The notes beneath the pieces were generated by a model. It had not been told where the DNA came from. It searched no databases and worked only from the letters and a program-made list of their open reading frames with translations. The position numbers and the translations under genes are program-made. Of a DNA stretch of 64,000 nucleotides, positions 53,765-62,442 are shown piece by piece (position 1 is the first letter of the stretch; each line of letters begins with the position of its first letter). The stretch covers positions 1,184,001-1,248,000 of the forward strand of contig CP000068.1 of assembly GCA_000002445.1 (NCBI GenBank), in the 5' to 3' direction. Source of the DNA: Trypanosoma brucei. Lineage: Eukaryota.

Positions 53765-55170
53765 TTTTTTCAGTGAACATCTTACATAAACTTTGGTAGA
53801 AAATCTTAAGCACCTGTTTTGAATAACAACACTTCGGCAGCCTGTGTCGGTTGCTTGTCTTAAAAAGACATTCTTCTGCTTCATTGTACCCCTTTGTTTT
53901 AATACACAAGAATCAAAGAGATTGTTATGAAGGCAAAACGAGAAAAAAAAATGTCGCAAAGGCAAGAAATGCCGGGAATTTAAGAAGACATCCTCCCCGC
54001 CAAAGTTTTTTTTGGCCCAACGAACCGTACGAACTTGTATAGACTGGTGTAGACGAACCGTACCTGATCGAAACGAAAGTGTTTTTAAGCGTGAAGAAAT
54101 GCGATGAAGGACAAATGCGAAAATTCGAGGCAGGGACTTTAGGGAATGCCCAAACACTGTTGAGGATATTTTTAAAAAAAACCTCAGAATAAATCACCAT
54201 CTCGACGCGGTTTCAGAGCCCAATATGTAGGAACGACGGGGAAGGGAACCGAGGACCCGCAGCTAACTCCGCCAGGATTGGGTTACGAAAATAACCACGC
54301 GTGGGGCGTCAACAACAACAGCACACAAAAAAAAAACGCCGTTGCTAACCTGCAAAGCATCGAGGAAAATAATGACCTTTTTCCCTCGGTCTTTTCAGCA
54401 TGATGGCCTTCTCAGCGCAGTGGTGACACAACCTCAGCGGACATTTCCTCACCTTCCTTTGAGTTTATCTAAACTCTTCCCGTATACATCATTTTCTACA
54501 GGCGCAGCTCCTGTGGATAATTCATTCAATATTAAGGTTAATTCCTCCAAAGGGTATGCAAAATGGGTTGGCAGCTCCTCGCTATTGGTAATTCCATCTC
54601 CGAAACTTCGGACGTTTTTGTCCGCCACCTTTTCATATATTTCCACAATCACATTCATAAGTGCTGTTTTGTTGTTTGTTTTTTTGAAGCTCATTCTTCC
54701 ACCCAACACCGCACCCCCCTCCAAACGTCCCGCAATTCTTATCAGCAAAAAACAAAAAAACATTGCTTCATCCCTTTCCTACCTTATGACTCATTTTAAC
54801 AAAAGGAAAACGTTCAGGGAGTGTGAAAGCATAAACAATGACTAAACACGCGGGATTGCCTCAATAACGCATCGCGGAATACAATCACACATTACAGAAA
54901 AGAAATATAACCAATTTTATCACCAGTGCATTTCCCTGCACTTCCCCCCCCCCCTCTCCCTCAAAAAGGAACAAACAAGACGAAGGAAACACAACACACG
55001 AGGGGTTTATATTACATTTATTTATTTTTGGTTCATGCGTATGAAACCATATCCGTATGACACGTTTTTGCGCAGTGCATTGCACTTACTTTTTACACCA
55101 AGTGGATAAAAAGATAAACAAAACAAAAGGAAAAAAGGAAAAGAAACAATGGGAAAACACAATCAAGAAT
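53765..55170. other. Convergent strand-switch region (end of + strand transcription unit meets end of - strand unit); probable RNA polymerase II termination zone
   Basis: All confident genes up to 53764 are on +; all confident genes from 55171 onward are on -. No convincing ORF in between. Confidence 0.6.
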
Positions 55171-56085
55171 TCAGAATATACTGAGGAGCAAAAAAGAAAC
55201 CGCGGTAAAATATATTTTGATGATGAGGAGGGGCAACGGCGATTTAATACCGCCATCTTGTGTAGGGCGATCAACTCCATGCGCCTCAGGGGTGGCGGAG
55301 TTTTCAGGAGGTGGTTCCGTCGTTTCATTTTGTTTATCATTCTGTGATGTCGAGTGGTTTGTATTATTTTTTTTTTCTTGGGCCTGCGGTAACGATTGAT
55401 TTCGATGTGGTAATTGAAGTTTGTTTCGGGTGTCATCGCCTTCAGTGGTGGTTTCATTGTGTTTGTCATTAACTCCATTCCCTCCATTATCAGCAACCTT
55501 TTTATTGTCTTCATTTCTCGGGATTGCTTCCGCATTTTCATTACTTCTATCATCACCTTTCTTCTGATCGGTGACGTTATCATTTCCATGAACGACCGAC
55601 TCTTCTTCTCTATCAGTTTTCGGTTTTTCTTCAGGCGCTGCTTTAATTTCTTCATTGTTTTGAGTTGGCGATGCCTCTCCCTCAGCTTTTCCAACTTGAG
55701 GTGGCTGAGTTCGAATTTGTTGGACGCACTTCACTCGGTCACTGTCTTCCACATCGCAGGTATAATTGGTCTGATTAACGGATATTGTGCAATTTTTGAG
55801 ATATCTGCACAGTGGCAACACTTCCTTCTCTTGCCCATCAATCCTGCACTTACACGTAAAGTTGCTGACGTCAGGGCCGGGCATCCGATCACAAAAACCA
55901 TCGGGATCATCGGAACCATCCACATAGTTCTCCATTACTTCTTCAAGGAATTCGCAGTGTTCTTTTTGGTGTTCCTCCTCCGTTTGTGCGGGAGGGCGGC
56001 CTTTTCCAGGAAATTTCGCGTTCCATGTCTTAGCTTGAATAGCGAATGCACCCGCCAAGACTAAAAACACGACAAATATCCTCAT
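55171..56085 (-). CDS. Putative GPI-anchored surface protein: signal peptide, 8-Cys N-terminal domain, hydrophilic mucin/stalk-like low-complexity region, C-terminal GPI signal
   Basis: Signal MRIFVVFLVLAGAFAIQA. Cys spacing CEF..C..C..CKC..C..C..C..C. Multiple N-glycosylation sequons. E/N/K/D/T/P-rich stalk. Hydrophobic C-terminus SPLPLLIIKIYFTAVSFLLLSIF. Purine-rich (- strand pyrimidine-rich) tract upstream at 56190..56215. Confidence 0.45.
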   Translation of the reverse strand: MRIFVVFLVLAGAFAIQAKTWNAKFPGKGRPPAQTEEEHQKEHCEFLEEVMENYVDGSDDPDGFCDRMPGPDVSNFTCKCRIDGQEKEVLPLCRYLKNCTISVNQTNYTCDVEDSDRVKCVQQIRTQPPQVGKAEGEASPTQNNEEIKAAPEEKPKTDREEESVVHGNDNVTDQKKGDDRSNENAEAIPRNEDNKKVADNGGNGVNDKHNETTTEGDDTRNKLQLPHRNQSLPQAQEKKNNTNHSTSQNDKQNETTEPPPENSATPEAHGVDRPTQDGGIKSPLPLLIIKIYFTAVSFLLLSIF

Positions 56086-56792
56086 TATATTATTCCACTT
56101 GCAATATATTATCTAACTCCGCAAGTGTGTGCAGGTGCATGCAAATGTGAAACATATATTAATTTATTTAGTTTAGACATGTTAAAAATAGAAGAAAAGC
56201 GTCAACTGCCGCAATCGCCCGGCGAGAGTACTGCACACAAAAGACATATGAATATACACCACGCCCACAAAACTTCCGTTCCAGCGATGAAAGTCAAATG
56301 ATTTTTTCTCATTTCCTCGAAAACAGTGTTCCAACACCTTCTTTTCATGAGGTTGATAAATTATGACGTGCATGAATCTCAGCATTACCGTAAAAAATCC
56401 ATCAATGCATTCATACATTTACATCTTGTTAGGAAGGAGGGATTATTAAAAGCGCATGGAAGTGTGACGCTCCAAACTCGGTTTAGTGACATTTGCACGG
56501 GACTATTCTTCCTTCTGTTTACGCTTCTACGTTTTGACCCCGCATCTTATTAAAATAAATGAACTCAAATTAGAGCATCAGAGTGGAATATGGGAAAGGA
56601 AATGAAATATGATTTACAATTGCTGCTGACGTCTTAGCTGTTATGATGTGATATTACAAATGTGTCATGAAATAAACTACAACGCATTGCGATGAAGTGG
56701 GTTGACAGCAGAAACTGAATTTCTTCAGAGGAATATGCTCAACTAAACAACTAATGGCAAAAAGTCGATTCATTACACATCGGATGAACCAA

Positions 56793-56811
56793 AAATAAAT
56801 AAATAAATAAA
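56793..56811 (+). repeat. (AAAT)n microsatellite in the 3' flank of the - strand surface-protein genes
   Basis: aaataaataaataaataaa. Confidence 0.85.
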
Positions 56812-57200: not shown

Positions 57201-57285
57201 AGGACAAGGGACAATTCAAAGTGTGAAGAAAAAAAAAAAGGAAGCAGCTGGCAAAAAAAGCACTGAGTGGTGGCATGTTTGAAAA

Positions 57286-57320
57286 TAATAATAATAATAA
57301 TATTAATATTAATATTAATA
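57286..57320 (+). repeat. (AAT)n/(ATT)n compound microsatellite
   Basis: aataataataataataatattaatattaatattaata. Confidence 0.9.
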
Positions 57321-58054
57321 TGACGCGTCAATGGTGTTGTTCTTGGGAACAACAAGCTGGAAAGAGGAGAACAGGGGAAAAAAATATGAGGCGTTCCGTA
57401 CGCACATAAAATATGTTAATGAGGGGTAGATAAACATATAGGTAAAACTTATTAACAACAACGTTAAGAACACGTAACAACAAGAAATTAAAAAATCACA
57501 ATGAGAAAAAAAGGAAATAGATATGATCACCAAGAAAAAAAAAAGTTGTGCTAGTTATATTTCTTGTGTGCCTCAGTGTTCCCAAGAATGGGAACATAGA
57601 AACTAAGAAGAGGTTGCAGAGAAGTCGATAAATGCTGTAAAATTACGATAACACTTTAATATATATATATATATATGGAAACCAAAAAAAAAATAGTGGG
57701 AAAACAAGAAAAAAATAAAGAGGGGGACAACGCACAAAAACAAAAATGGTGGCGGCAGTCGTGAAGAGTAAATCCCTTTCTCGATGGCGCAGTAACTGCC
57801 TCTGCACGCGTAAATAAACTGTAAAATACAACAGTGCACTAAAAAGGAAATAATGGGGAAAAGGGCGGGGGAAAGCGTGTGCGCCGCCGAAATATGATCA
57901 ATTTTGGAGTAAAACAAGGAAAAGGGTGAATGGTAATGACGATGGTCAAATGGCAGGGAAATATTCCCATTTGTGGCGACACGCCCACGCTGGTCACATG
58001 AGCAGCAGCAGGATCATCATTAGCTGCGAGCCCCCCCCCCATAATATTTTTTTC

Positions 58055-58873
58055 TTAGAAAGAGAGGGCCGTGGCGGCAAGCATTACGAGAAGGAATTTC
58101 ATTGAAGTACCCACAGCCCCACTCGCTTCATCTTCCTTATCTTCATCGGAGTCGTCATCATCGATTTCAGGGAACTGAGCTGCCTCTTCTTGTGCCTCAC
58201 TCTTGGCATCATCAGCTGCATCGGCAGCCCTAACAGTCTCAGCGGTAGCTTTCTGAAGCTCCTCCAGTTTATTAGCCGCTTCATTCGCCTCCTGGAGGTA
58301 TTCCTCAGCGAAATCTTGCATGTACAGCCCTCTCAGGTTGTGAGCCGCTCTCGTAAGCGCTTCTGGCGTGACGTCGTCAGCAACAGCGGTGGCACATTCT
58401 TTAGCCAACTGCTTAATTGTTTCATTCCCTCCGTGCTCCGCGGCGCCCCTCAGCAAACCACTGAAGACACTTTCATATTCACTCTCAAAGCTGTCAAGCG
58501 CCCGGGCGAAGCGTTTTACTTCCATCGCTGCTGCTTCGGCACGTACAGATGCCTCATACGCCACCGTGGCGGCCTCCCGAGCTCTCTTTGCAGCCTGCTG
58601 CTGTTCCGATGTGCCGCCAACGGCACCCGCCTCCGCACGCTTCGCGGCCTTTTTGCCTTCCTTCGCTGCTTTTTTGCTTTCCTCCAATGCGCCTACAGCC
58701 TCGAACCTCCGCTCTTCCGTCAGTAGCGGAAGTTTACGCAGTTGTTTCGCCACCTCACATAGTGCTTTCGTCTGTTCCAATTCGGCTTCAAGATTATCGT
58801 TCGCGTAGGCGGTCGGTGCGAATATGAAGTGAAGACTGAGGCCGAGCACAAACAAAGCGCGGGAAATCATCAT
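58055..58873 (-). CDS. BARP/GARP-like alanine- and glutamate-rich, predicted helical, GPI-anchored surface protein
   Basis: Signal MMISRALFVLGLSLHFIFAPTAYA. Mature region strongly A/E/K-rich with heptad-like helices. Acidic DDDDSDEDKEDE preceding the hydrophobic C-terminal GPI signal SGAVGTSMKFLLVMLAATALSF. Confidence 0.5.
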   Translation of the reverse strand: MMISRALFVLGLSLHFIFAPTAYANDNLEAELEQTKALCEVAKQLRKLPLLTEERRFEAVGALEESKKAAKEGKKAAKRAEAGAVGGTSEQQQAAKRAREAATVAYEASVRAEAAAMEVKRFARALDSFESEYESVFSGLLRGAAEHGGNETIKQLAKECATAVADDVTPEALTRAAHNLRGLYMQDFAEEYLQEANEAANKLEELQKATAETVRAADAADDAKSEAQEEAAQFPEIDDDDSDEDKEDEASGAVGTSMKFLLVMLAATALSF

Positions 58874-59988: not shown

Positions 59989-62442
59989 TTATGGTGCGTT
60001 CCACTCAAGCGAGCGCGGGAATTGCTCATGGTTTATGAATGGCAAATCCTGCAAATCCTTCTCGTGGTGATGCATCTCCAGTTGCTGTACTGGTATGCTG
60101 TGCAGCAACCACGTTTGATCCTCTTCAAATGGGGTTTGGTCCACTTTTCCTGGAATCTGTTGCATGGGCCAAAGCTTGTTCACATTGTACACTGGTGCTG
60201 GCTCCGCAGAGATTGTAAACTGTTTATCCAAATATTTGGCGGTGTACGCCATCCAGTCCTGCGTGGCGGGTGTCTCGCTCGGCGTTGGTGGAAAACGGCT
60301 GGTTGGTGTATGGTACTCATGTGGGAACCGCTCGGCATTTTGCGGCAAATGAGGAATACTCTTCAGTTTGAATGTCTCCTCCTCCGCGATGGTGCGGGCA
60401 AGCAGCGCATCCGTGGCAGCTTGTGGTCGTAGTTGTGGTTCCACCAACCGTCGCGGCCTCCTCGCCTCCGGAGGCACACGGACAAAATCGAGACCAGAAA
60501 CGTCAGTAATGCCATCATTGACGGCCCGCAACGCTTCTTCGCTACACTGAAGACGCTTCGCTATGGCCACAAGCGTATCATTAGCATGCACACGCTCAAC
60601 CGGGCTGAACTCAGACTCGCTCGTTGACGTCCAGCAGGAAAGTGGGGCAACCAGTTCCGTTACTGAAGAATCAAACTCGCCCGCTTCGCTCTCTTTCTTC
60701 TGGTATGTCAGAGCGGCATGACCGTTACACTGTTGCAGCTCCTCTACTGTGCAATCAAGAATTGCTGCCGCCTCCTCCCATGTCCGAATACGCTCCCCAT
60801 CCTTCGCTGATGTTGTTTTTAGCGGAAGTACAAGTGGAGTCGCCCCAAAGCTTGTAAGTCTCCGTGTGGCAGTCACGGGGACATTAATCACAACTCCTGC
60901 CTCGATTGTCTCACGCTCCGCGTTCGCATCCTTCAATTCACCGACACTGCAACCCAAGCGCTGCGCCACGGCATCCCAGTTTTCACCTTCACGGACAGTG
61001 TCAGTGCTCAGTCGGTTTACTGGTGCCGACTGCCAGTCTAAAGCAAAGGAAAACATACGGTGATGTTCGTGCGTCGTTGGTGTCGCCGGGTCGTGTTCTG
61101 TAGGGAAAACCGCAGAATCGTGTATCACGTTACGTCGATAAATGGTGTGAAACTCGCAGGACGTCTGACGATGCAACCAGTGGCGTATATCGTACATGCG
61201 CTTCTCAAATTCCGTGCTTTGAAAGGGCAACTTGCATATTATTACCCTAAAGAACTTGCGAAACTCGTAGTGGGCTGTCGACATCTCAAGTTCTGTAAAT
61301 GAGGTGTCAGAAGAAGATGTCCAAAACTCGGCCATACGCACCCACGGCTCCAGTTTCTCAACGTGTGGCCATGATGTGTGCGGATCGTATATGTTTGTCG
61401 CACCTGGTACCGGTACATTACAACGGTTGATGACACTTAGACATTGCTCTTCTAGGCGCCGCAGGTCAGAGCGCAGGAAATTTGCGACCTCCTCCTTATC
61501 GTATTCATCATACCCCCCAAACGGACCGGCGCGGGCACAGTTGAATGCAGCGAGCAACTCCGGATCCACCGCACCTCCCTGCAGCAACCGACGTACCGCC
61601 ACCAACTTCTCCTCCACTATTTGGCGACCCACATCCTTCAAGAACATGCAAACATCCTCAGCCAGCTTCATCACGTGGTGATCCCAAAATCCTTCCAGAA
61701 CAATTTTGTAGGTTACCTCGGAACCACGAATACCATCCTCCTCGGTGTTCTCAAACACAAAGCGCCTATTTCGCACTTTGGCCACTTCATATTCGTACCA
61801 ATCCTCTGTTTTCCACTGGAAGGGGAACACACTTCGATCAGCGTTAATTTTTCCGGCATAAGACGGTATAGGCTCGAGCCGCCCGACGTCACGTTGCACT
61901 TCCAAAGGACTGAGAATGCGAGCGTGCTGGTGATGCTCACGCACAGCGCGATCCATTATGGTCTCCAGTGTGGGTGGTGGCGTTTTTTGATTCGCTTCGT
62001 TCATCTTCGTCAAGTAGGCGTCACGGAAGGGAAAACCTTTCTGTCCATTCCCACGGGACTTGCGTGGGTCAAATCTGGCGAACTCCCGCATGTATTGTAC
62101 ATACTCCCGGCCCTTCGCGTCGAATTCGTTGAACGGACGGAAGCGAAATGCATTCGGTGGCGCGCTTGCGCTCCACGGCCGATAATCTCCCATATGATGC
62201 GTCATGGAAGTACAGATATACCAACTGTCAACGTATTGGTCCTCAGGCACATCCGGGCGCACAAGTGGGCCGCGAATACTCATGGGAAATTTGTCGTCAA
62301 TAGGATCGATAAACTCGTTAGTTTTGGTGCTGTTCATGCTTTGTGGTGCAGCAACGGGGGCCGGACCGTCAAACTTTGGCATTTGCGTGGGCATTCGGTA
62401 CCGCGACCAATAGTACGCAACCACATGACTACGTCTAACCAT
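59989..62442 (-). CDS. Hypothetical 817-aa protein with three LysM-like repeats in its C-terminal half
   Basis: Repeats GENWDAVAQRLGCSVGELKDANAE..IEAGVVINVP, WEEAAAILDCTVEELQQCNGHAALTY and NDTLVAIAKRLQCSEEALRAVNDGITDVSGLDFVRVP fit the LysM pattern (D-T-L-x-x-I-A-x-r-x-x-x-s-x-x-x-L-x-x-x-N...G-x-x-L-x-V-P). Confidence 0.5.
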   Translation of the reverse strand: MVRRSHVVAYYWSRYRMPTQMPKFDGPAPVAAPQSMNSTKTNEFIDPIDDKFPMSIRGPLVRPDVPEDQYVDSWYICTSMTHHMGDYRPWSASAPPNAFRFRPFNEFDAKGREYVQYMREFARFDPRKSRGNGQKGFPFRDAYLTKMNEANQKTPPPTLETIMDRAVREHHQHARILSPLEVQRDVGRLEPIPSYAGKINADRSVFPFQWKTEDWYEYEVAKVRNRRFVFENTEEDGIRGSEVTYKIVLEGFWDHHVMKLAEDVCMFLKDVGRQIVEEKLVAVRRLLQGGAVDPELLAAFNCARAGPFGGYDEYDKEEVANFLRSDLRRLEEQCLSVINRCNVPVPGATNIYDPHTSWPHVEKLEPWVRMAEFWTSSSDTSFTELEMSTAHYEFRKFFRVIICKLPFQSTEFEKRMYDIRHWLHRQTSCEFHTIYRRNVIHDSAVFPTEHDPATPTTHEHHRMFSFALDWQSAPVNRLSTDTVREGENWDAVAQRLGCSVGELKDANAERETIEAGVVINVPVTATRRLTSFGATPLVLPLKTTSAKDGERIRTWEEAAAILDCTVEELQQCNGHAALTYQKKESEAGEFDSSVTELVAPLSCWTSTSESEFSPVERVHANDTLVAIAKRLQCSEEALRAVNDGITDVSGLDFVRVPPEARRPRRLVEPQLRPQAATDALLARTIAEEETFKLKSIPHLPQNAERFPHEYHTPTSRFPPTPSETPATQDWMAYTAKYLDKQFTISAEPAPVYNVNKLWPMQQIPGKVDQTPFEEDQTWLLHSIPVQQLEMHHHEKDLQDLPFINHEQFPRSLEWNAP

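What the first reader, a model, noticed from the sequence alone, without database searches (positions are those of the whole stretch)
55171..56085. Novel-looking Cys-rich, mucin-stalked, GPI-anchored surface protein
Signal peptide, an 8-cysteine globular N-domain, many NxT/S sequons, and a ~130-aa E/N/K/D/T-rich low-complexity stalk followed by a hydrophobic GPI signal. I cannot place it in VSG, ISG, procyclin, BARP or transferrin-receptor families by eye. The low-complexity stalk is what yields the overlapping out-of-frame ORFs on both strands (55086..55694 -, 55414..56064 +). Its position beside the VSG-related and BARP-like genes suggests a small surface-coat locus.
Basis: inference. Interest (0 to 1): 0.5.

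Follow-up and report, generated by a model that had tools for sequence, protein, structure and literature searches.

The report
Known trypanosome surface protein ESP4
The ORF is a real, already catalogued but functionally unstudied Trypanosoma brucei bloodstream-stage surface glycoprotein (Tb927.5.4010, ESP4), and its small cysteine-rich head differs between strains about twelve times more than the rest of the gene.

Summary
The 304-aa ORF at 55171-56085 (minus strand) is real and matches the description. It has a signal peptide, an 8-Cys head (aa ~19-125), 10 N-glycosylation sequons, a ~150-aa acidic stalk with no predicted secondary structure, and a hydrophobic GPI-type tail. It is 100% identical to Tb927.5.4010 on T. 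brucei TREU927 chromosome 5. That gene is already in the literature. Jackson 2010 listed it as a fast-evolving, T. brucei-specific gene at a strand switch with predicted signal peptide and GPI site. Gadelha 2015 named it ESP4 and found it 3134-fold enriched in the bloodstream-form surface proteome, but the tagged protein was undetectable, so it was never localised. The head has no Pfam hit, no relative among 1.84 billion representative proteins, and no PDB sequence or fold match, although the AlphaFold model is weak. New here: between alleles the head differs at 20% of nucleotides (dS 0.31) and the rest of the contig at 1.6%. All 8 cysteines and 3 sequons are invariant, and the alleles look like recombinant mosaics. 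I read it as a host-exposed head held on a flexible stalk within the VSG coat, probably under host-driven selection. "Mucin" is not supported. The neighbours are surface-protein genes (a VSG-related gene and the factor H receptor), but they are not co-regulated with it.

The parts
55171..56085 (-). Complete CDS of Tb927.5.4010 / ESP4 (304 aa; stop codon at 55171-55173)
   Evidence: ORF list. 100% identity over 100% of its length to Tb927.5.4010. Mass-spectrometry detection with 8 peptides and 35.9% coverage.
56032..56085 (-). Signal peptide, aa 1-18 (cleavage probably after A15 or A18)
   Evidence: Hydropathy and the -3/-1 rule. SignalP p=1 in Gadelha 2015. Predicted helix 4-19. One older predictor was negative. 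Invariant except I16V across 4 alleles.
55711..56031 (-). Cysteine-rich head, aa 19-125: 8 invariant Cys, 3 conserved sequons (N75, N98, N107) plus N104 in the TREU927 allele only. Predicted as one long helix (aa ~36-52) followed by 4-5 beta strands.
   Evidence: No Pfam, PDB or fold match. No homologue outside the T. brucei group.
55711..55953 (-). Hypervariable core of the head (aa 45-125): up to 30% nucleotide divergence between alleles in 60-nt windows
   Evidence: Sliding window and per-site patterns. Over aa 20-125, dS is 0.31 and dN is 0.22. Head versus the rest of the contig: Fisher p=9e-26.
55255..55710 (-). Acidic N/E/T/P/K/D-rich low-complexity stalk, aa 126-277, with 6 sequons; nearly invariant between alleles
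   Evidence: Composition. No secondary structure predicted for aa 123-283. dS 0.01 and dN 0.017. No tandem repeats.
55174..55254 (-). C-terminal GPI-addition signal, aa 278-304. The omega site is probably D277, which is N in other alleles; both are classical omega residues.
   Evidence: Hydropathy. Predicted helix 284-303. BigPI and FragAnchor positive; PredGPI positive. The omega-site assignment is my inference.
56184..56199 (-). Polypyrimidine tract (CTTTTCTTCTATTTTT). The first downstream AG is at 56118-56117, a candidate trans-splice acceptor that would give a 5'UTR of about 31 nt.
   Evidence: Read directly from the sequence. Inference only; no spliced-leader read was available.
55414..56064 (+). 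Antisense 216-aa ORF; a by-product of composition, not a gene
   Evidence: The true coding strand is T-poor. The mass-spectrometry peptides, the in-frame 3-codon deletion in the T. equiperdum allele and the signal peptide and GPI signals all support the minus-strand frame instead.
55086..55694 (-). Out-of-frame 202-aa ORF (TTG start) over the stalk; a by-product of composition

Best explanation
SHOWN. The ORF is Tb927.5.4010 (ESP4). It is a single-copy gene found only in the T. brucei group, and it is the last gene of the minus-strand transcription unit at a convergent strand switch on chromosome 5. Its product is present in the surface-labelled proteome of bloodstream forms. Its mRNA is higher in slender than in stumpy bloodstream forms and is also detected in salivary-gland parasites. 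The protein consists of a signal peptide, a ~105-aa head with 8 invariant cysteines and 3-4 N-glycan sites, a ~150-aa acidic stalk with no predicted secondary structure and 6 N-glycan sites, and a GPI-addition signal. Between alleles, divergence is concentrated in the head: 20% of nucleotides against 1.6% elsewhere. Synonymous and non-synonymous sites are both affected, the cysteine and glycan scaffold is untouched, and the alleles are mosaics of one another.

INFERRED MECHANISM. After GPI anchoring, the flexible stalk acts as a tether. A random coil of ~150 residues would span roughly 10 nm and could stretch further, against a VSG coat of about 12-15 nm (coat thickness from established knowledge). 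This would place the small disulfide-locked head at or near the outer face of the coat, where host macromolecules and antibodies can reach it, while the glycosylated stalk stays buried among VSG molecules. Membrane-proximal disorder with this proposed role has been shown for ISGs. Exposure of the head would explain why it alone carries deep allelic classes that recombine with each other. I interpret that pattern as host-driven balancing or diversifying selection. The head is most likely a binding module for a host serum or cell-surface ligand in mammal-infective stages. The ligand is unknown.
For: Identity. Surface proteome: 55 PSMs, 8 peptides, 35.9% coverage, 3134-fold enrichment (sixth in the table, which runs in descending enrichment), SignalP 1.0, PredGPI 1.0, 0 TM. 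GPI also predicted by BigPI and FragAnchor. Expression: slender over stumpy 2.76-fold with a high array signal; RT-PCR values SG 5, PV 1, MG 1, BSF 2. Architecture. Restriction to the T. brucei group: only two 90%-identity clusters among 5.8 billion; only the query itself among 1.84 billion representatives; no similar ORF in the T. vivax syntenic locus; literature agrees. Localised divergence: head dS 0.31 and dN 0.22 against stalk dS 0.01 and dN 0.017; 64 differences in 318 nt against 13 in 828 nt, p=9e-26; synonymous sites alone p=3e-8. The non-TREU927 head type is seen independently in the T. b. gambiense DAL972 and T. equiperdum genome assemblies and in two Logan assemblies. Mosaic sites are shared between T. 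equiperdum and TREU927. Precedent for a disordered tether: ISG membrane-proximal disorder allows extension beyond the VSG layer (PMC11065263). Precedent for receptor function: the adjacent gene is a proven host-ligand receptor, FHR.
Against: No ligand, localisation or phenotype is known. Endogenously tagged ESP4 gave no signal on western blot. GPI anchoring and glycosylation are predictions only. dN/dS in the head is 0.69, not above 1, so positive selection is not formally shown. Only four alleles were available, and DNA for only two. The head model has low confidence (pLDDT 66 in one of five models; 38 for the full-length protein), so neither its fold nor the disorder of the stalk is established. 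Savage 2012 classed the transcript as salivary-gland preferential, and their signal-peptide predictor was negative. The reach of the stalk relative to the VSG coat is a back-of-envelope estimate.
Confidence: 0.55

Rival explanations
1. ESP4 is exposed but has no specific ligand. It would be a minor glycocalyx or spacer component, or an immunological bystander. The head polymorphism would then reflect antibody-driven frequency-dependent selection only, as for dimorphic malaria merozoite antigens.
For: Variation is confined to the head while the scaffold is conserved. Glycan density is high. The head has no recognisable binding fold.
Against: A conserved four-disulfide scaffold and invariant motifs (PGPxVSNFTCKC, CRYxKNCT, NYTCD, RVKC) across all alleles suggest a maintained structure-dependent function. 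The gene is kept single-copy and intact in every Trypanozoon sequence found.
Confidence: 0.25
2. The head divergence is not maintained by selection. It would result from a single gene-conversion or introgression event that replaced the head-coding segment in the TREU927 lineage, or from relaxed constraint on a young, dispensable orphan gene.
For: 26 of the 60 variable amino-acid sites are private to TREU927. dN/dS of 0.69 is compatible with weak constraint. The divergence has sharp boundaries.
Against: No donor paralogue exists in the window or in the protein databases. Cysteines, sequons, length and reading frame are all preserved. T. equiperdum shares TREU927-type residues at aa 81-85 and 123, so the TREU927-type sequence is not private and has recombined with the other type. 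The protein is expressed at levels detectable by mass spectrometry.
Confidence: 0.15
3. ESP4 acts mainly in the tsetse salivary gland (epimastigote or metacyclic stages), not in the mammal.
For: Semi-quantitative RT-PCR gave SG 5, BSF 2, MG 1, PV 1 and the authors classed it 'salivary gland specific'.
Against: The protein was found on cultured bloodstream forms, with a high slender-form mRNA signal. Metacyclic forms in the gland are pre-adapted to the mammal, so a salivary-gland signal is compatible with a mammalian-stage role (established knowledge).
Confidence: 0.05

Closest known systems
Tb927.5.4010 = ESP4 ('enriched in surface-labeled proteome protein 4'), with orthologues Tbg972.5.4300 in T. 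b. gambiense and SCU71791 in T. equiperdum
   Same: It is this gene: 100% identity to the TREU927 protein, and 85-87% identity to the other alleles.
   Different: Nothing differs. The published record stops at prediction, proteomic detection and a failed tagging attempt; no function, fold or localisation is known.
ISG65/ISG75 invariant surface glycoprotein superfamily of T. brucei
   Same: Bloodstream-stage invariant (non-VSG) surface glycoproteins in which a folded membrane-distal domain is carried on an intrinsically disordered membrane-proximal region that lets it reach through the VSG layer (PMC11065263). ISG65 is a host C3/C3b receptor (titles).
   Different: ISGs are type I transmembrane proteins with helical-bundle ectodomains and belong to multigene families. 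ESP4 is predicted to be GPI-anchored with 0 TM, is single-copy, has a small 8-Cys helix-plus-strand head, and shows no sequence similarity to them.
FHR / BARP / GARP / HpHbR three-helix-bundle GPI-anchored receptors (Pfam PF16731, PF20933)
   Same: GPI-anchored trypanosome surface proteins, several of which bind host ligands. FHR is the adjacent gene in the same transcription unit.
   Different: There is no Pfam match and BLASTP against FHR finds only low-complexity noise. The head is cysteine-rich and mostly predicted as beta strand, not a long helical bundle. Stage regulation is opposite to that of FHR.
Fungal CFEM GPI proteins (e.g. Candida Rbt5/Pga7 haemophores) and mammalian CD55/CD59-type GPI proteins (recalled from my own knowledge)
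   Same: The overall build is the same: signal peptide, a small domain with 8 or more cysteines, a low-complexity glycosylated stalk, and a GPI anchor.
   Different: No Pfam CFEM, Sushi or UPAR_LY6 hit even at E<=10. The cysteine spacing (C-x20-C-x12-C-x-C-x12-C-x5-C-x10-C-x9-C) does not fit the CFEM pattern. CFEM is all-helical, whereas this head is predicted as a helix plus strands. This is an analogy only.
T. cruzi mucins and T. brucei procyclins
   Same: GPI-anchored proteins in which low-complexity sequence makes up a large part.
   Different: Mucins are rich in Thr, Ser and Pro and are O-glycosylated; procyclins have EP or GPEET repeats. The ESP4 stalk is 13.8% S+T, has no repeats, and carries a folded Cys-rich head.
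Dimorphic or hypervariable Plasmodium merozoite surface antigens such as MSP2 and AMA1 (recalled from my own knowledge)
   Same: Deep allelic classes in the exposed part of a surface protein, flanked by conserved sequence, with recombinant mosaics.
   Different: Unrelated organism and fold. For ESP4 the population frequencies of the allele types are unknown.

Membership tests
ESP4 / Tb927.5.4010 orthogroup | Full-length sequence identity to the reference protein | tested here: met
   100% identity and 100% coverage, E=7.5e-204. Accessions XP_845071.1 and Q57Z48.
ESP4 / Tb927.5.4010 orthogroup | Genomic position between the VSG-related Tb927.5.3990/4000 genes and FHR Tb927.5.4020 at a convergent strand switch on chromosome 5 | tested here: met
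   Pfam assignments of the neighbours. Gene orientation. Locus map in Reynolds 2014 Fig. 5. 'Located at strand-switch regions' in Jackson 2010.
GPI-anchored surface proteins (class) | Cleavable N-terminal signal peptide | tested here: met
   Hydrophobic core and AxA/IQA motif. SignalP 3 HMM p=1.0. One other predictor was negative.
GPI-anchored surface proteins (class) | C-terminal signal made of small omega residues, a short spacer and a hydrophobic tail, with no cytoplasmic tail | tested here: met
   D277-G-G, IKSPLP, then a 19-aa hydrophobic end. BigPI, FragAnchor and PredGPI all positive.
GPI-anchored surface proteins (class) | Biochemical proof of a GPI anchor (PI-PLC or GPI-PLC release, CRD epitope, lipid labelling) | not testable with these tools
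   No published experiment was found.
GPI-anchored surface proteins (class) | Presence at the cell surface | tested here: met
   3134-fold enrichment after surface chemical labelling of live bloodstream forms (literature). Microscopy failed because the tagged protein was undetectable.
VSG / VSG-related (Pfam PF00913, PF10659) | Match to the VSG N- or C-terminal domain profiles | tested here: not met
   No Pfam hit at E<=0.1 for the whole protein or at E<=10 for the head. BLASTP against the neighbouring VSG-related protein gave E=0.78.
BARP/GARP/FHR/HpHbR (PF16731, PF20933) | Profile match or three-helix-bundle ectodomain | tested here: not met
   No Pfam hit. BLASTP against FHR aligns only low-complexity sequence and the tail. 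The predicted head has one helix plus strands.
ISG superfamily | Type I transmembrane topology and a helical ectodomain | tested here: not met
   0 TM predicted. The C-terminal hydrophobic stretch is the last residue run of the protein. No Pfam or other sequence match.
Mucin-type stalk proteins | Stalk dominated by Ser, Thr and Pro, usually as tandem repeats | tested here: not met
   S+T 13.8% and P 8.6% in the stalk; N, E, K and D dominate. No tandem repeats.
Known disulfide-rich extracellular folds (CFEM, Ly6/uPAR, PAN/apple, CCP and others) | Profile or fold match | tested here: inconclusive

The most novel reading that the evidence does not exclude
The ESP4 head is a previously undescribed disulfide-rich fold that serves as a T. 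brucei-specific receptor for a host factor, for example a serum or complement component. It would be presented at the top of the VSG coat on a GPI-anchored disordered tether and kept as ancient, recombining allelic classes by host-driven balancing selection. That would make it an allele-dependent determinant of the host-parasite interaction.
Probability: 0.2. Interest if true: 0.65.

Novelty: already known. Interest (0 to 1): 0.33.

Why it matters
Few invariant surface proteins of bloodstream T. brucei have known functions; examples are TfR, HpHbR, ISG65 and FHR. Each one that was solved revealed a host-parasite interaction or a drug or immunity route. ESP4 is among the most strongly enriched surface-proteome hits that still has no function. 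It is specific to the T. brucei group, and its head shows a striking localised allelic divergence. That makes it a reasonable candidate for receptor-ligand screening and for serology that distinguishes allele types. However, the gene's existence, its predicted topology and its rapid evolution were already published, so the finding does not reveal a new kind of system.

Tried and rejected
(1) Pfam on the whole protein (E<=0.1) and on four head alleles (E<=10) gave nothing.

(2) A word-indexed search of 5.8 billion clusters found only the protein itself and one allele cluster. An exhaustive phmmer search of the head against 1.84 billion representatives found only the protein itself.

(3) A PDB sequence-profile search gave a best E of 0.16, which is noise.

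(5) BLASTP of the head against the neighbouring VSG-related protein, and of the whole protein against FHR, found nothing meaningful. This rejects the idea that the head derives from a VSG C-terminal domain or from FHR.

(6) Positional homologue search: the T. congolense uS10m orthologue is not on record in the contig index. The T. vivax syntenic locus carries HpHbR-family genes and nothing like ESP4.

(7) tblastn of ESP4 against the whole window found no paralogue or donor sequence.

(8) tRNA and Rfam scans of the window found nothing, so there is no RNA gene at the strand switch.

(9) I looked for extended similarity around the 24-nt inverted repeat that brackets the gene, to test for an inversion cassette. 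There is none beyond about 30 nt.

(10) I rejected the reading that the + strand or out-of-frame ORFs are genes. They are explained by the T-poor coding strand.

(11) I considered CFEM, Ly6 and PAN-domain analogies from memory. Profiles, cysteine spacing and predicted secondary structure support none of them.
Full report
**1. What is in the sequence**

The ORF listing gives a 304-aa ATG-initiated ORF at 55171..56085 on the minus strand. Its features are as follows.

- N-terminus: the product starts MRIFVVFLVLAGAFAIQA|KT, that is, one basic residue, a 13-residue hydrophobic core and AxA/IQA cleavage motifs.
- Cysteines: exactly eight, at positions 44, 65, 78, 80, 93, 99, 110 and 120.
- Sequons: ten NxS/T in total.
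- Stalk: aa 126-277 is dominated by N, E, T, P, K and D. It has no C, F, W, Y or M, a net charge of -13, and no internal repeats.
- C-terminus: the protein ends ...TQDGG-IKSPLP-LLIIKIYFTAVSFLLLSIF, which is small residues, a short spacer and a terminal hydrophobic run.

The sequons exceed what composition predicts. The head has 4 against 0.52 expected (P=0.0006) and the stalk has 6 against 2.5 (P=0.02).

The coding strand is only 15% T in the stalk, and every stop codon, read on either strand, needs a T on the coding strand, so long spurious ORFs are expected there. The + strand ORF also spans the head, so this explanation is only partly sufficient.

**2. Identity**

The protein is 100% identical over its full length to 'hypothetical protein Tb927.5.4010' of Trypanosoma brucei brucei TREU927, chromosome 5 (contig of 1,608,198 bp). 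The T. equiperdum orthologue is annotated 'Enriched in surface-labeled proteome protein 4', and the T. b. gambiense orthologue 'T. brucei spp.-specific protein'.

**3. What the literature already says**

- Jackson et al. 2010 (PMC2854126) single out Tb927.5.4010/Tbg972.5.4300, at 92.7% nucleotide identity, as among the 5% most divergent orthologue pairs. They describe it as located at a strand-switch region, with a predicted signal peptide and GPI site, and absent from Leishmania major and T. cruzi.
- Gadelha et al. 2015 (PMC4587319) found it in the chemically labelled surface proteome of bloodstream forms. The figures are 55 PSMs, 8 peptides, 35.9% coverage, 3134-fold enrichment (sixth in their table, which runs in descending enrichment), SignalP 1.0, PredGPI 1.0 and 0 TM. 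It belongs to no cell-surface-phylome family. They named it ESP4, but the endogenously tagged protein was undetectable on western blots and 'not pursued further'.
- Savage et al. 2012 (PMC3378594, Tables S6 and S7) report orthologues only in T. b. gambiense and a GPI site predicted by both BigPI and FragAnchor. Their signal-peptide predictor was negative; it was also negative for FHR and HpHbR, which are proven surface proteins. Their RT-PCR values were salivary gland 5, proventriculus 1, midgut 1 and bloodstream 2.
- Jensen et al. 2009 (PMC2771046) list the mRNA as 2.76-fold higher in slender than in stumpy bloodstream forms, with a high signal.
- Reynolds et al. 2014 (PMC4150806, Fig. 5) use this exact locus to show that base J and H3.V terminate Pol II transcription upstream of the last two plus-strand genes, Tb427.05.3990 (VSG-related) and .4000. 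Tb427.05.4010 is gene 4 in that figure, on the opposite strand.

I found no paper that assigns a function, fold or localisation.

**4. Surroundings**

Plus-strand ORFs run up to 53764 and minus-strand ORFs run from 55171 onward, so the gene is the last one of its transcription unit at a convergent strand switch.

- 52331-53764 (+) is a VSG A-type related protein.
- 58055-58873 (-) is a GARP/BARP-family protein. This is Tb927.5.4020, the factor H receptor FHR (Macleod 2020, PMC7067766).
- 59989-62442 (-) is the LysM-containing mitoribosomal protein uS10m.

The strand switch is therefore flanked by surface-protein genes, but they are not co-regulated. The VSG-related gene is silenced by base J. 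FHR is undetectable in slender forms and induced in stumpy and procyclic forms. ESP4 shows the reverse pattern. There is no tRNA or Rfam RNA gene in the window.

**5. Relatives and fold**

- Pfam finds nothing, at E<=0.1 for the whole protein and at E<=10 for four head alleles.
- The word-indexed search of 5.8 billion clusters returns only the protein itself and one allele cluster.
- Exhaustive phmmer of the head (aa 20-135) against 1.84 billion representatives returns only the protein itself.
- The PDB sequence-profile search returns noise, best E=0.16.
- BLASTP against both neighbouring surface proteins returns nothing meaningful.
- The T. vivax locus downstream of uS10m carries an array of HpHbR-family genes and nothing like ESP4. 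The window holds no paralogue.

AlphaFold2 on the head with four alleles gives pLDDT 66 in one model out of five. That model has a helix at about aa 36-52 followed by four or five strands. The full-length run is poor (pLDDT 38), but it repeats the same secondary-structure pattern in the head. It also predicts no secondary structure for aa 123-283 and terminal helices at the signal peptide and the GPI signal.

**6. New observation: divergence is confined to the head**

Four alleles were available: TREU927, T. b. gambiense DAL972, T. equiperdum, and one from Logan assemblies of runs ERR7929156 and ERR7929159. They are 85-87% identical. In the pairwise comparison with the Logan allele, 38 of the 46 amino-acid differences fall in aa 20-125.

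At the DNA level, TREU927 was compared with the Logan allele over an ungapped 1146-nt contig.

| Region | Differences | Divergence |
|---|---|---|
| Head (aa 20-125) | 64 of 318 nt | 20.1% |
| Rest of contig (signal peptide, stalk, GPI signal, both flanks) | 13 of 828 nt | 1.6% |

The difference between these two rows is significant (Fisher p=9e-26), and it holds for synonymous changes alone (p=3e-8). The Nei-Gojobori estimates are dS 0.31 and dN 0.22 (ratio 0.69) in the head, against dS 0.01 and dN 0.017 in the stalk. Sixty-nucleotide windows reach 30% divergence between codons ~41 and ~120 and fall to 0-3% on both sides.

All eight cysteines are invariant, as are the sequons N75, N98 and N107, the length of the protein, and the motifs PGPxVSNFTCKC, CRYxKNCT, NYTCD and RVKC.

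Of the 60 variable amino-acid sites across the four alleles, 26 are private to TREU927. However, T. equiperdum shares TREU927-type residues at aa 81-85 and 123 and the other type elsewhere, so the alleles are recombinant mosaics. The variable patches cluster at four places: aa 45-63 (the end of the helix and the following loop), aa 81-92, aa 101-106 and aa 112-116. In TREU927 these patches are acidic (DDPD, EKEV, VEDSD), and in the other alleles they are glycine-rich (GGSG, NTGG, GDDSG).

High synonymous divergence with sharp edges points to two possibilities. One is old allelic lineages kept in the population, with recombination homogenising the flanks. The other is a segmental replacement from an unknown donor. 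Since dN/dS is below 1, positive selection is not formally demonstrated.

**7. How it most likely works**

Shown:
- It is a real, expressed surface-proteome component of bloodstream forms.
- It has the architecture described above.
- It is restricted to the T. brucei group.
- Allelic divergence is confined to the head.

Inferred:
- GPI anchoring. I place the omega site at D277, which is N in the other alleles; both are classical omega residues.
- Heavy N-glycosylation.
- A disordered stalk acting as a tether about 10 nm long, or longer when stretched. This would place the disulfide-locked head near the outer face of the 12-15 nm VSG coat.

The third inference follows the design principle demonstrated for ISGs, whose intrinsically disordered membrane-proximal regions let the folded domain extend beyond the VSG layer (PMC11065263). 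If the head is exposed and the glycosylated stalk is buried, that would explain why only the head is polymorphic. I consider a host-ligand-binding role the most likely one. It fits the precedents of FHR next door, ISG65 and HpHbR, and the expression in mammal-infective stages, but no ligand is known.

The rivals are an exposed antigen with no ligand, a neutral segmental replacement or relaxed constraint, and a role mainly in the tsetse salivary gland.

**8. Comparison with known systems and novelty**

Membership of the ESP4/Tb927.5.4010 orthogroup is met by identity and by genomic position. Membership of the VSG, BARP/GARP/FHR, ISG and mucin families was tested and not met. Membership of known disulfide-rich folds is inconclusive.

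Functionally it most resembles the 'folded head on a disordered tether' invariant surface glycoproteins, but with a GPI anchor and an unrelated head. The gene, its topology predictions, its surface-proteome detection and its rapid evolution are all published, so I rate it 'already known'. The sharp mapping of divergence onto the head, with the mosaic structure and the conserved scaffold, is a modest addition that makes a receptor or antigen hypothesis testable.

Noticed in passing
window 55016-55039 (+) and 56781-56804 (-): A 24-nt inverted repeat, ATTTATTTATTTTTGGTTCATSCG, brackets the ESP4 gene, 131 nt past its stop codon and about 700 nt upstream of its start. These are the only two matches in the 64 kb at up to 3 mismatches, and none of 100 shuffles produced any. 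Similarity does not extend beyond about 30 nt. In sense orientation each copy lies downstream of a gene (the end of the plus-strand unit, and FHR), so it may be an AU-rich 3'UTR element rather than a structural repeat.
   Followed up: partly
window 46000-52300: A 6.3-kb stretch with no ORF of 180 aa or more lies between the ribosomal L15-like gene (44864-45988) and the VSG-related gene. GC falls to 0.41 at 48-50 kb. [quoted passage not shown] 5 onto the window).
   Followed up: partly
window 58055-58873 (-): The factor H receptor (Tb927.5.4020) ORF is 272 aa here and has a clear signal peptide. The text of Macleod 2020 says 227 residues, which may be a digit transposition or a different start or processing convention.
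   Followed up: no
L003 7905-16189 (T. vivax SOPI01000039.1): In T. vivax the region downstream of the uS10m (LysM) gene holds a tandem array of at least five HpHbR-family (PF20933) genes. T. brucei has the single FHR gene plus ESP4 at that position.
   Followed up: partly
window 59989-62442 (-): The 817-aa LysM-domain ORF is the mitoribosomal protein uS10m. It is conserved across kinetoplastids at 60-84% identity.
   Followed up: partly
window 57284-57320 and about 57660-57680: (AAT)n/(AATAATATTAAT)n and (TA)n microsatellites lie in the FHR-ESP4 intergenic region. They could serve as polymorphic markers next to the divergent head.
   Followed up: no
window 54342-54845 (+) and 54563-54799 (+): Only short, unconvincing ORFs lie between the VSG-related gene and ESP4. 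The annotated 'hypothetical protein' Tb927.5.4000, which is derepressed on loss of base J in Reynolds 2014, must be one of them. Its coding status looks doubtful from sequence alone.
   Followed up: no
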